This document shows positions 25,901 to 28,900 of a stretch of 64,000 nucleotides of DNA, in pieces. Made by a program: the position numbers. Source of the DNA: Escherichia coli (GTDB lineage Bacteria; Pseudomonadota; Gammaproteobacteria; Enterobacterales; Enterobacteriaceae); assembly GCF_013122565.1 (NCBI RefSeq), contig NZ_CP053258.1; one strand, written 5' to 3'. Position 1 is the stretch's first letter. The number at the start of each line of letters is the position of its first letter.

Positions 25901-28900
25901 TTTTATTCTTACTCCGCACCGCATATGCGGGTGATGCGTGATCTGATAAAGCAGCATCGTTCTCCCATGGAGCTGATGACGATGCTGCGGTGACGTGAGC
26001 TTAAACGGGCTGCCCCTGATGCGACATCCGCGTCGCCAGCGGTAGCCAGCACAGCACGATCAACAATCCCATTAAGGTCATCAACAACCCCAGACTGCCC
26101 TGACCGGTTTGCGGCAACATCGCAGAGAGCGACGCCAGCGCGCCGGAACCAATGTTTTGTAGACCGCCGACCAGCGCGCCAGCCGTGCCCGCCAGGAAAG
26201 GGAACGGCTCCATCGCGCCGCTGGTTGCCAGCGGAAACAGCATCCCGGCACCAAAAAAGAACAGCGCGGCGGGAACGAGCAGCGTCCAGACATTCATCAC
26301 GCCAAACCAGTCGGGGATCCACATCAGTAAGCCAGCCAGCAGGCAGCAGATAACCGACTGCCACATCAACGTTGAGAAGCGTTTATTAGGACGCCCGGCA
26401 AACCATGCCCCAAAAAATGCCGCCGGAATCGGCAGAATAAACAAAATACTGACCGTCATACTGCTCAGCCCTAACACCGCGCCCATCAGCACGCCGGAGC
26501 AGGCTTCAAAGGCGGCAATCCCGGCCAGACCGCCAATCAGCATCAGCAAATAACAGTTAAAACCGCCGTTACCGAAAAGCGTTTTATAACTGGTAAGCAG
26601 GCGCGTGCGCGGTGCGTCGACCGGACGCGTTTCCGGCATCCAGCGGGCCATACTGAAGGTCACACCAGCACAAAGGACCAACAAAAAGAGATAACAGGCG
26701 CGCCAGTTCCACATCGTATCCAGCAGACCGCCGATTAGCGGTGCGAGCAACGGACTGACGAGAATTCCCATGTTTAACAGGCTGTTAGCATGGCGCAACT
26801 GTGTCCGTTCATATAAATCTCGCGGCAAAGTACGCGCCATTACGCCGCCAACGCCGGTGCCCATCCCCTGCATCGCGCTGGCGGCAATCAACACCGTCAA
26901 ACTGGAGGTCGTGACCGCGACTAGCGTTGCCAGCATAAAAATGGACATTCCGACGAGGATCACCGGTCGGCGACCGACACGGTCGGAAATCGGGCCATAA
27001 AACAGCTGTGAGACACCGTAAGTCAGCAGATAAGCGCCCATTACGCTCTGCACCGCCCCTTCACGGACGTTGAGATCGCGCGCCATATCGGCAATAGCTG
27101 GAATATAAATGGTTTGCGCCATCTGACCGACGGCCACGAGTAATACCAACATCAATAACAAATTGACGTTTCTATGCCTTTTCATTATCACGGATGCTTT
27201 TATAAAAATAATTAGAATAAGTCACTACGCATTCCCATAAATGCGGGAGAGGAATCTATCACATTGATAAATGTTAGCCAGATATACGCCAGGAATGGGG
27301 AATTGTTTAGCGGCAGAATATGTAAACAAAAGCGGCAATAAATGTTGCCGGGAGAGATGGTAGGGCGGATAAGATGCGTCAGCATCGCATCCGACTCCAA
27401 CCCGCACGCTAAATATAAAAGGGGAGCGGTTACCCGCTCCCCTTTGGTGCGACTTGAATCTGAATTACTTCAGGTATTTCAGAACAGCATCAAGCAGTTG
27501 CAGTGCTGCAACAATGAGTTTGAGGATAAGAATGGCAATATCCACCAGGCTCATACGCGTCTCCTGTGGTTCAGGAGCACTGCCAGCTGACGTACCTTTC
27601 CGCTGCCTGTTGCCAGCTGTTGTGCACGCGGTATCTCAAGGAGAAACGTTGTGCTTGTTGACATAACACAGTGTGCTCACGCGGGGTTAAGGCGCTGACG
27701 GCACCACCCGTTTCAGCCAGGACTTAGTGCGCCGGGTAACGATGCGGCCCCCGCATAACACATTGCGTACAGTGATATTATAGAAGTTTACTGTATAAAT
27801 AAACAGTAATATTTGGACAAAACGCAAACTGTGATCGATACTCAACTATGCACTAAATACGTCAAAATTCGTGCCGAAATTGCGCGTTCTGCGCGGAACA
27901 GGTATACTTTCAGTGTTGACATAATACAGTGTGCTTTGCGGTTACCAGCCGCAGGCGGCTGACGAAACCTCGCTCCGGCGGGGTTTTTTGTTATCTGCAA
28001 TTCAGTACAAAACGTGATCAACCCCTCAATTTTCCCTTGCTGAAAAATTTTCCATTGTCTCCCCTGTAAAGCTGTGCTTGTATAAATATTGTTAAACACA
28101 AAACCAACAAGGTCCCCAATGACTACTTCCATGTTCAACGCAAAACTACTACCAACTGCGCCATCCGCCGCAGTGGTCGTCGTGCGTGTGGTGGTGGTCG
28201 TCGGCAATGCGCCGTAGGGACTGGAACAACACACGATTCCAAAACCCCGCCGGCGCAAACCGGGCGGGGTTTTTCGTTTAAGCACCTCCCGGAAAGTCGG
28301 CCCAGAAGAAAAGGACTGGAGCATGGCAAGTTCGGGCACAACATCGACGCGTAAGCGCTTTACCGGCGCAGAATTTATCGTTCATTTCCTGGAACAGCAG
28401 GGCATTAAGATTGTGACGGGCATTCCGGGCGGTTCTATCCTGCCTGTTTACGATGCCTTAAGCCAAAGCACGCAAATCCGCCATATTCTGGCCCGTCATG
28501 AACAGGGCGCGGGGTTTATCGCTCAGGGAATGGCGCGCACCGACGGTAAACCGGCGGTCTGTATGGCCTGTAGCGGACCGGGTGCGACTAACCTGGTGAC
28601 CGCCATTGCCGATGCGCGGCTGGATTCCATCCCGCTGATTTGCATCACCGGTCAGGTTCCTGCCTCGATGATCGGCACCGACGCCTTCCAGGAAGTGGAC
28701 ACCTACGGCATCTCTATCCCCATCACCAAACACAACTATCTGGTCAGACATATCGAAGAACTCCCGCAGGTCATGAGCGATGCCTTCCGTATTGCGCAAT
28801 CAGGCCGCCCTGGCCCGGTGTGGATAGACATTCCTAAGGATGTGCAAACGGCAGTTTTTGAGATTGAAGCACAGCCCGCGGTGGCAGAAAAAGCCGCCGC

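What the first reader, a model, noticed from the sequence alone, without database searches (positions are those of the whole stretch)
28119..28276. ivbL leader peptide and attenuator upstream of ilvB
A 32-aa ORF rich in Val and Leu (…AAVVVVRVVVVVGNAP) is followed by a GC-rich hairpin with a T-run just before ilvB, the classic transcription-attenuation arrangement. It is below the ORF-track size cutoff.
Basis: partly seen in the sequence, partly recalled or inferred. Interest (0 to 1): 0.3.

Follow-up and report, generated by a model that had tools for sequence, protein, structure and literature searches.

The report
Known ivbL leader/attenuator of ilvBN
This is the well-known E. coli ivbL leader peptide and transcription attenuator, which turns the valine/leucine biosynthesis genes ilvBN up when valine or leucine runs short; it is real and intact, but ordinary.

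Summary
Window 28119-28217 (+) encodes the 32-aa peptide MTTSMFNAKLLPTAPSAAVVVVRVVVVVGNAP. It passes NCBI's curated IvbL equivalog model (80.1 bits, cutoff 60). It lies in the same gene order as E. coli K-12: emrD, tisB, istR, ivbL, ilvB, ilvN. Across 27860-28330 the window differs from K-12 at three bases, only one of them in the leader (28134 T for C, Leu6 to Phe). At least 38% of complete E. coli genomes share that base.

A strong terminator (28241-28273, -21.6 kcal/mol, followed by UUUUUCGUUU) competes with an equally strong antiterminator (28208-28257, -21.9 kcal/mol). The two share 11 bases, so they cannot form together. The antiterminator's 5' arm overlaps the last codons and the stop codon of ivbL. 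A ribosome that finishes the peptide therefore blocks it, while one stalled on most of the Val codons leaves it free.

I collected 36 orthologous leaders from other Enterobacterales. All fold into the same two hairpins, and the antiterminator's inner helix and an upstream hairpin show compensatory changes. The published K-12 element responds to Val and Leu.

Verdict: already known, low interest.

The parts
28010..28031 (+). CRP-like site AAACGTGATCAACCCCTCAATT. The left half CGTGA is good and the right half CCTCA is weak.
   Evidence: Read. The GTGATC half-site is conserved across the orthologous upstream regions. Assigning it to CRP is inference from the known cAMP-CRP dependence of ilvBN (own knowledge) and was not tested here.
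28055..28087 (+). Conserved promoter-like block, TTGTCT ... CTGTGCTTGTATAAAT. The exact hexamers and the transcription start (probably about 28091-28095) were not determined.
   Evidence: Conserved columns in the alignment of 37 upstream regions. The consensus scan did not call a promoter here. TTGTCT and TATAAA are 20 nt apart, too far for a standard -35/-10 pair.
28094..28112 (+). 5'UTR: a C/A-rich stretch AACACAAAACCAACAA followed by the Shine-Dalgarno AAGG (28109-28112), 6 nt before the ATG.
   Evidence: AGG and the ATG context are conserved. PMC11347164 says a GcvB site is predicted in the 5'UTR near the AUG. Equating it with this stretch is my inference.
28119..28217 (+). ivbL leader peptide ORF, 32 codons plus TAG.
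   Evidence: NCBIfam NF007579 equivalog, 80.1 bits against cutoff 60, E = 8e-23. Annotated ivbL in E. coli genomes. All alignment gaps inside the ORF are multiples of 3, whereas gaps downstream of the stop are not.
28146..28151 (+). Tandem Leu codons CUA CUA (codons 10-11).
   Evidence: CTACTA in 36 of 37 orthologues, and this region was not constrained by the search pattern.
28155..28174 (+). Upstream hairpin ACUGCG / CGCAGU (28155-60 paired with 28169-74), just before the Val run. It may be a pause or relay hairpin.
   Evidence: RNAalifold consensus. Pair 28157:28172 covaries (C-G 24, U-A 11, A-U 1) through synonymous third positions. Energy -9.8 kcal/mol, z = -2.1. The function is inferred.
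28173..28202 (+). Regulatory codon run VVVV-R-VVVVV. Bases 28175-28194 form region 1, the 5' arm of the protector.
   Evidence: Caveat: the first two bases of each of these ten codons were fixed by my search pattern, so that conservation in the orthologue set is not independent evidence.
28202..28222 (+). Region 2 (CGGCAAUGCGCCGUAGGGACU). It covers the last four sense codons, the stop codon and 5 nt beyond. It pairs with region 1 (protector) or with region 3 (antiterminator).
   Evidence: GCGCCGTA..GGG is invariant in 37 of 37 sequences.
28208..28257 (+). Antiterminator (2:3) made of three helices: 28208-14 with 28251-57, GGG 28217-19 with CCC 28246-48, and an inner helix 28222-27 with 28235-41.
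   Evidence: Energy -21.9 kcal/mol, z = -3.7, 0 of 200 shuffles as stable. The same architecture is the MFE in all 37 orthologues. On the alignment 89.8% of cells pair, against 60% or less when the partner is slid, and compensatory changes occur in the inner helix, for example A-U 13 and U-A 7.
28241..28279 (+). Intrinsic terminator (3:4): stem 28241-53 with 28260-73, then the U tract UUUUUCGUUU (28270-79).
   Evidence: -19.7 to -25.4 kcal/mol in all 37. 95.6% of cells pair and 10 of 13 pairs are invariant. Term-seq in E. coli reports a 3' end named ivbL_t (PMC9023263).
28323..30305 (+). Regulated genes: ilvB (28323-30011) and ilvN (30015-30305).
   Evidence: ORFs. Pfam finds TPP_enzyme_N, _M and _C domains in ilvB and the ACT_AHAS_ss domain in ilvN. 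Collinear with K-12 at 97.8% identity.

Best explanation
This is the ivbL leader and ribosome-mediated transcription attenuator of the ilvBN operon (acetohydroxyacid synthase I). Transcription starts about 25-30 nt upstream of the ivbL ATG, and a ribosome translates the 32-codon leader while RNA polymerase moves on.

When charged tRNA-Val (and tRNA-Leu) is plentiful, the ribosome runs through the Val codons to the stop codon. There it physically covers region 2 (28202-28222). Region 3 is then free to pair with region 4, the terminator forms, and transcription ends in the U tract at about 28274-28279, before ilvB.

When tRNA-Val is scarce, the ribosome stalls on Val codons 19-26. It then covers region 1 (28175-28194) but not region 2. 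Region 2 pairs with region 3 (28241-28257) to form the antiterminator, the terminator cannot form, and polymerase reads into ilvBN.

Shown here: the sequence elements, their mutual exclusivity, their stability, their conservation, and the footprint geometry. Inferred, or taken from the literature on the near-identical K-12 element: the actual stalling, the termination, and the Val/Leu response.
For: Identity. The window differs from K-12 at only three bases across 27860-28330, with one base change in the leader. The spot is annotated ivbL in RefSeq genomes. The peptide meets NCBIfam NF007579 at 80.1 bits against a cutoff of 60.

Structures. Terminator -21.6 kcal/mol, z = -2.6. Antiterminator -21.9 kcal/mol, z = -3.7. 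They share 11 bases.

Footprint model. With nascent RNA ending at 28258, the antiterminator core forms with P = 0.95-0.96 when the A site is on codons 1-25. It falls to 0.84 at codon 26, 0.37 at codon 27, and 0 from codon 28 to the stop codon. With the full terminator transcribed and the ribosome at codon 27 or later, P(terminator) = 0.87.

Comparative evidence. 36 further leaders upstream of ilvB, from Escherichia to Yersinia, Serratia, Dickeya, Pectobacterium, Brenneria and Morganella, all fold into the same two hairpins. Compensatory changes occur in the antiterminator inner helix and the upstream hairpin. The protector and upstream hairpin pair in 97.7% of cells, against 55% or less when slid. 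Indels within the ORF come in multiples of three.

Literature. [quoted passage not shown] 1985, PMID 2578464). A Term-seq 3' end named ivbL_t is reported (PMC9023263).
Against: Nothing contradicts the explanation, but several links are weak.

(1) The protector (1:2) is no more stable than shuffled sequence: -15 kcal/mol, z = +0.33.
(2) At equilibrium, with RNA ending at 28258 and no ribosome, the antiterminator is still predicted (P = 0.955). Thermodynamics alone therefore does not explain termination without translation; a kinetic argument is needed.
(3) The core arms of the terminator and antiterminator are invariant, so they give no covariation.
(4) Stalling at the Leu codons is not clearly transmitted in my footprint model. 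Only codon 10 gave an effect (P(anti) = 0.56) and codon 11 did not.
(5) The orthologue set was selected with a pattern that fixes the Val/Arg core.
(6) The simple terminator scan missed this hairpin because of its bulge.
(7) No Rfam family matched it.
(8) The Phe6 allele has not itself been tested experimentally.
Confidence: 0.96

Rival explanations
1. The hairpin is only a constitutive terminator or insulator that ends transcription coming from upstream (istR or read-through), and the small ORF is a chance ORF with no regulatory role.
For: The terminator on its own looks like any intrinsic terminator. The protector is not thermodynamically exceptional.
Against: istR has its own terminator at 27964-27990 and a full-length Rfam match at 27860-27989. 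The ORF passes a curated family model. It keeps its reading frame through 3-nt indels across genera. An equally stable, conserved alternative hairpin overlaps both the terminator and the stop codon. A Val/Leu response is shown for K-12.
Confidence: 0.01
2. The leader acts mainly after transcription, through GcvB sRNA pairing in the 5'UTR and RNase E cleavage between ivbL and ilvB, rather than through ribosome-controlled termination.
For: PMC11347164 reports ivbL as a GcvB target. It finds RNase E sites in the ivbL-ilvB intergenic region and predicts a GcvB site near the AUG. A C/A-rich stretch lies at 28094-28109.
Against: This is an added layer, not a replacement. It does not explain the conserved terminator/antiterminator pair or the Val run. 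The authors themselves say their mechanism 'needs further corroboration'.
Confidence: 0.02
3. The element is a decayed or altered ivbL in which the Leu6-to-Phe change has changed or lost leucine sensing.
For: The window has TTC where K-12 has CTC, which removes one of three Leu codons.
Against: The exact 60-mer carrying TTC occurs in about 2044 of 5418 E. coli genomes and in ATCC 8739, where it is annotated IvbL. Codon 6 is variable among orthologues (L, M, N, Q, T and others). It lies about 40 nt upstream of region 1. The conserved CUA CUA pair is intact.
Confidence: 0.01

Closest known systems
E. coli K-12 ivbL (b3672) leader/attenuator of ilvBN
   Same: Same locus and gene order (emrD-tisB-istR-ivbL-ilvB-ilvN). 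The leader, terminator and antiterminator are identical except for one base. Same peptide family.
   Different: Codon 6 is TTC (Phe) instead of CTC (Leu). This common E. coli allele is found in at least 38% of complete genomes. Just downstream of ilvN, this genome also carries a 3.4-kb insertion that K-12 lacks.
trp operon leader (trpL), the textbook four-region attenuator (own knowledge)
   Same: A short leader ORF carrying the regulatory codons in region 1. There are alternative 1:2, 2:3 and 3:4 pairings, and ribosome position selects between antiterminator and terminator.
   Different: The regulatory codons are nine Val (plus two Leu) rather than two Trp. Region 2 overlaps the last codons and the stop codon itself. 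There is an extra conserved hairpin upstream of region 1. No Rfam leader model matches.
ilvGMEDA leader (ilvL) and leu leader (leuL) of E. coli (own knowledge)
   Same: Branched-chain amino-acid attenuators of the same mechanistic class. In the orthologue alignment the two Leu codons here are almost always the CUA codon (36/37), which I recall is also preferred in the leu leader.
   Different: A different peptide and different RNA sequence. ivbL has no Ile codons, which matches bivalent Val/Leu control. The ilvBN promoter additionally depends on cAMP-CRP (own knowledge; a CRP-like site lies at 28010-28031).

Membership tests
IvbL leader peptide (NCBIfam NF007579 / PRK10214, equivalog) | Whole-protein HMM score at or above the curated cutoff. 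| tested here: met
   80.1 bits against cutoff 60, E = 8.1e-23, residues 1-32 aligned to profile positions 1-32.
IvbL leader peptide (NCBIfam NF007579 / PRK10214, equivalog) | Located immediately upstream of ilvB-ilvN on the same strand. | tested here: met
   ORF ends at 28217. ilvB starts at 28323 and ilvN at 30015, with Pfam TPP-enzyme and AHAS small-subunit ACT domains. Annotated the same way in E. coli genomes.
Ribosome-mediated transcription attenuators (trp/his/leu/thr/ilv class) | Short translated leader ORF with clustered codons for the regulating amino acid(s). | tested here: met
   9 Val codons in 10 consecutive codons, plus CUA CUA. Coding signature: indels in multiples of three and an SD 6 nt before the ATG. 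Translation itself was not measured here.
Ribosome-mediated transcription attenuators (trp/his/leu/thr/ilv class) | Intrinsic terminator between the leader ORF and the first structural gene. | tested here: met
   28241-28279, -21.6 kcal/mol, z = -2.6, followed by a U tract. Conserved in 37 of 37 sequences. A Term-seq 3' end is reported for E. coli.
Ribosome-mediated transcription attenuators (trp/his/leu/thr/ilv class) | Alternative antiterminator hairpin that shares bases with the terminator's 5' arm. | tested here: met
   28208-28257, -21.9 kcal/mol, z = -3.7, sharing 11 bases with the terminator. It is the MFE in all 37 orthologues, with compensatory changes in the inner helix.
Ribosome-mediated transcription attenuators (trp/his/leu/thr/ilv class) | Ribosome position (stalled on regulatory codons or at the stop codon) decides which hairpin forms. 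| tested here: met
   In silico only. In the footprint model P(antiterminator) is 0.95-0.96 with the A site on codons 1-25, 0.84 at codon 26, 0.37 at codon 27, and 0 from codon 28 to the stop.
Ribosome-mediated transcription attenuators (trp/his/leu/thr/ilv class) | A protector (1:2) pairing that sequesters region 2 when region 1 is not covered. | tested here: inconclusive
   It is conserved: 97.7% of cells pair, against 55% or less when slid. It is not more stable than shuffles (z = +0.33), and at equilibrium it loses to the antiterminator.
Ribosome-mediated transcription attenuators (trp/his/leu/thr/ilv class) | Downstream gene expression rises when the cognate charged tRNA is limiting. | not testable with these tools
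   Shown for the K-12 sequence, which differs by one base, with gfp fusions (PMC11187965). Not shown for this allele.
Rfam amino-acid leader families (any curated model) | A covariance-model match on the + strand over the leader. | tested here: not met
   No + strand match at E <= 1 over 28090-28320. Only weak chance hits on the opposite strand, and istR upstream. The copy of Rfam searched appears to hold no model that recognises the ivbL leader.

The most novel reading that the evidence does not exclude
The terminated leader transcript of roughly 185 nt (about 28092-28278) might have a second role. It has a C/A-rich 5' end and a strong terminator with a U tail, so it could act in trans as a sponge or partner for the GcvB sRNA. 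That would link the Val/Leu attenuation state to the wider GcvB amino-acid regulon. The evidence here does not exclude this, but it only hints at it: GcvB-ivbL pairing is reported (PMC11347164), and a C/A-rich stretch lies at 28094-28109.
Probability: 0.07. Interest if true: 0.4.

Novelty: already known. Interest (0 to 1): 0.06.

Why it matters
It matters only as correct annotation. The window carries an intact copy of a textbook regulatory element that falls below ORF-size cutoffs. The comparative analysis adds some detail. The terminator and antiterminator arms are invariant from Escherichia to Morganella, the stop codon lies inside region 2, and an upstream hairpin covaries through synonymous codon positions. 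None of this changes the accepted model.

Tried and rejected
(1) The consensus terminator scan did not report the attenuator. Its stem has a bulged G and the apical part exceeds the scan's loop limit. Direct folding shows the hairpin.

(2) Rfam at a permissive threshold gave no leader family, only istR upstream and sub-threshold hits on the opposite strand.

(3) My first ribosome-occupancy run used pair coordinates that were off by one or two bases and returned zeros. It is void and was redone.

(4) Equilibrium folding of the complete leader mostly favours the terminator wherever the ribosome sits. I rejected it as the relevant model because attenuation is a kinetic race, and used nascent RNA ending at 28258 instead.

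(5) The window's own MFE pairs the start-codon region (28119-27) with the Val run. I rejected this as a conserved feature because the N-terminal codons vary freely among orthologues. The RNAalifold protector is preferred.

(6) The idea that Arg23 (CGU) is conserved to supply G-C pairs to the protector cannot be tested on this set, because the search pattern fixed CGN at that codon.

(7) Pfam and PADLOC searches on the two ORFs of the island downstream of ilvN returned nothing.

Full report
**Observation**

Reading the window and listing ORFs confirms a 32-codon ORF at 28119-28217 on the + strand. It reads MTTSMFNAKLLPTAPSAAVVVVRVVVVVGNAP, ends in TAG, and has AAGG 6 nt upstream of the ATG. Nine of ten consecutive codons (28173-28202) are Val, and there are two Leu codons (CUA CUA, 28146-28151). 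Downstream, 28241-28253 pairs with 28260-28273 (G28262 bulged) and is followed by UUUUUCGUUU. The 562-aa ORF at 28323 has the three TPP-enzyme domains of an acetolactate synthase large subunit. The 96-aa ORF after it has the AHAS small-subunit ACT domain. The only overstatement is 'rich in Leu'.

**Identity**

Megablast of 27900-28400 finds the region in 5423 of 5426 complete E. coli genomes at 95-99.8% identity. It is annotated there as 'ivbL: ilvB operon leader peptide IvbL' followed by ilvB. ATCC 8739 and K-12 MG1655 show the same gene order: emrD, ysdE, tisB, istR, ivbL, ilvB, ilvN. Across 27860-28330 the window differs from K-12 at three bases, and only one is in the leader: 28134 T for C, turning Leu6 (CTC) into Phe (TTC). 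ATCC 8739 has the same leader sequence as the window. The exact 60-mer around the change occurs in about 2044 of 5418 genomes, so this is a common allele. The peptide scores 80.1 bits against NCBIfam NF007579 'ilvB operon leader peptide IvbL' (equivalog, cutoff 60). Rfam has no matching family; the only real hit nearby is istR at 27860-27989.

**Alternative hairpins in the window**

| Structure | Coordinates | Energy (kcal/mol) | z vs shuffles | Shuffles as stable |
|---|---|---|---|---|
| Terminator (3:4) | 28241-28273 | -21.6 | -2.6 | 2/200 |
| Antiterminator (2:3) | 28208-28257 | -21.9 | -3.7 | 0/200 |
| Protector (1:2) | 28175-28194 with 28202-28222 | -15.0 | +0.33 | 124/200 |
| Upstream hairpin | 28155-60 with 28169-74 | -9.8 | -2.1 | 5/200 |

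The antiterminator has three tiers:
- UGCGCCG 28208-14 with CGGCGCA 28251-57
- GGG 28217-19 with CCC 28246-48
- an inner helix, 28222-27 with 28235-41

The terminator and antiterminator share 28241, 28246-48 and 28251-57, so they exclude each other. The antiterminator's 5' arm consists of the last two sense codons, the stop codon and the next few bases.

**Ribosome-position model**

I forced a 30-nt footprint (A site -15 to +14) to stay unpaired at each codon in turn. With nascent RNA ending at 28258, before the terminator's 3' arm exists, the antiterminator core probability is:
- 0.95-0.96 with the A site on codons 1-25
- 0.84 at codon 26
- 0.37 at codon 27
- 0 from codon 28 to the stop codon

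Once the terminator's 3' arm is transcribed and the ribosome is at codon 27 or later, P(terminator) is 0.87. So a ribosome that completes the peptide blocks the antiterminator. One held on Val codons 19-26 covers region 1 and leaves region 2 free. An earlier run used wrong pair coordinates and is void.

**Comparative evidence**

A degenerate pattern for VVVVRVVVVV, scanned over one genome per species, returned 120 loci. Thirty-one have a short ORF ending 101-164 nt before an IlvB homologue that is 70-97% identical. Five more (Brenneria, Pectobacterium, Dickeya, Morganella and L093) have GTG starts and the same layout. The remaining hits lie in unrelated, mostly GC-rich genomes and have no ilvB downstream. 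I treat them as chance.

The alignment of 37 distinct leaders shows:
- Gaps inside the ORF are always multiples of three, but gaps after the stop are not.
- GCGCCGTA..GGG (region 2), AACCCCGCCGGCG (region 3) and GCGGGGTTT (region 4) are invariant.
- CTACTA is present in 36 of 37 sequences.

Each sequence, folded on its own, gives the same three-tier antiterminator (-17.3 to -22.9 kcal/mol) and the same terminator (-19.7 to -25.4).

Pair counts on the alignment:
- **Antiterminator:** 89.8% of cells pair, against 60% or less when the partner is slid. The inner helix carries compensatory changes, for example A-U 13 and U-A 7, or G-C 27 and A-U 4.
- **Terminator:** 95.6% of cells pair, with 10 of 13 pairs invariant. 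It is highly constrained but gives no covariation.
- **Protector and upstream hairpin:** RNAalifold recovers a protector pairing the Val/Arg codons (28175-28194) with region 2 (28202-28222). It also recovers an upstream hairpin (28155-60 with 28169-74) whose third pair covaries through synonymous positions: C-G 24, U-A 11, A-U 1. Together these pair in 97.7% of cells, against 55% or less when slid.

**Caveats**

- The search pattern fixed the first two bases of each Val codon and of the Arg codon. Conservation of that core in this set is therefore by construction.
- The protector is not more stable than shuffles.
- Without a ribosome, the equilibrium model still prefers the antiterminator until region 4 is made. 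The 'no translation gives termination' branch of the classical model therefore rests on kinetics that I could not simulate.
- The route by which a stall at the Leu codons is relayed is unclear. Only codon 10 had an effect in the model.

**Upstream region**

The alignment of upstream regions shows a conserved block, TTGTCT...CTGTGCTTGTATAAAT (28055-28087), and a conserved GTGATC half-site inside AAACGTGATCAACCCCTCAATT (28010-28031). These fit a CRP-dependent promoter, which is my recollection of the ilvBN literature. The exact hexamers and the transcription start were not determined, and the consensus scan called nothing here.

**Literature**

- PMC11187965 describes E. coli ivbL as a 32-codon attenuator with twelve Val/Leu codons. 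It shows that ivbL-gfp responds to Val and Leu but not to six other amino acids whose codons occur in the leader.
[quoted passage not shown] 1985, J Biol Chem 260:1765 (PMID 2578464). It adds GcvB and RNase E as a possible further layer of control.
- PMC9023263 lists a Term-seq 3' end named ivbL_t.
- The original sequence papers (Friden et al. 1982; Hauser and Hatfield 1983) are cited from memory only.

**Verdict**

The feature is real, correctly located and correctly interpreted. It is the already-known ivbL attenuator in a common Phe6 allele. Novelty: already known. Interest is low.

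Noticed in passing
window 30306-33673: A 3.4-kb low-GC insertion (33-43% GC, against about 55% in the flanks) lies between the ilvN stop and uhpA, where K-12 has about 10 bp. 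It holds two + strand ORFs, 30555-31862 (435 aa) and 32077-33573 (498 aa). Neither has a Pfam or PADLOC hit. The insertion is present in 1109 of 5426 complete E. coli genomes as 'hypothetical protein (x2)', at only 80-98% identity, so the alleles are unusually divergent.
   Followed up: partly
window 27465-27989: The tisB/istR type I toxin-antitoxin locus lies just upstream. tisB is at 27465-27554 (-). istR is a full-length Rfam RF01400 match at 27860-27989 (+), 144.8 bits, with its own terminator at 27964-27990. A LexA-box-like palindrome, TACTGTATAAATAAACAGTA, sits at 27790-27809.
   Followed up: partly
window 28134: T here gives Phe at ivbL codon 6, where K-12 and the GTDB E. coli representative have CTC (Leu). 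The exact 60-mer with T occurs in about 2044 of 5418 complete E. coli genomes. Codon 6 is variable among genera, so the change is probably neutral.
   Followed up: yes
window 28146-28151: The two Leu codons are CUA CUA in 36 of 37 orthologous leaders, at a fixed distance (six codons) before the Val run. This region was not constrained by the search pattern. How a stall here is relayed to the antiterminator is not explained by my footprint model.
   Followed up: partly
window 28155-28174: A conserved hairpin lies inside the coding region. Its third pair covaries through synonymous third positions of the Thr13 and Ala18 codons (C-G 24, U-A 11, A-U 1). It may be the polymerase pause hairpin; its function was not tested.
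   Followed up: partly
window 28094-28109: A C/A-rich 5'UTR stretch, AACACAAAACCAACAA, lies just upstream of the ivbL SD. It is a plausible site for the GcvB pairing predicted in PMC11347164, and it is moderately conserved in close relatives only.
   Followed up: no
window 27900-28400: In the megablast of this 501-bp query, only 4359 of 5423 genomes had one place covering at least 80% of the query, and the median was 2 places per genome. This suggests a polymorphic indel or rearrangement somewhere between istR and ivbL in about 20% of E. coli genomes. It was not examined.
   Followed up: no
L010, L087, L100, L060 (Enterobacter and Pseudocitrobacter group); L020, L042, L059, L081 (Brenneria, Morganella, Pectobacterium, Dickeya): In some genera an upstream in-frame ATG would extend the leader ORF to 58-71 aa. 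In the more distant genera the leader appears to start with GTG. The start codons in these genera were not verified.
   Followed up: no
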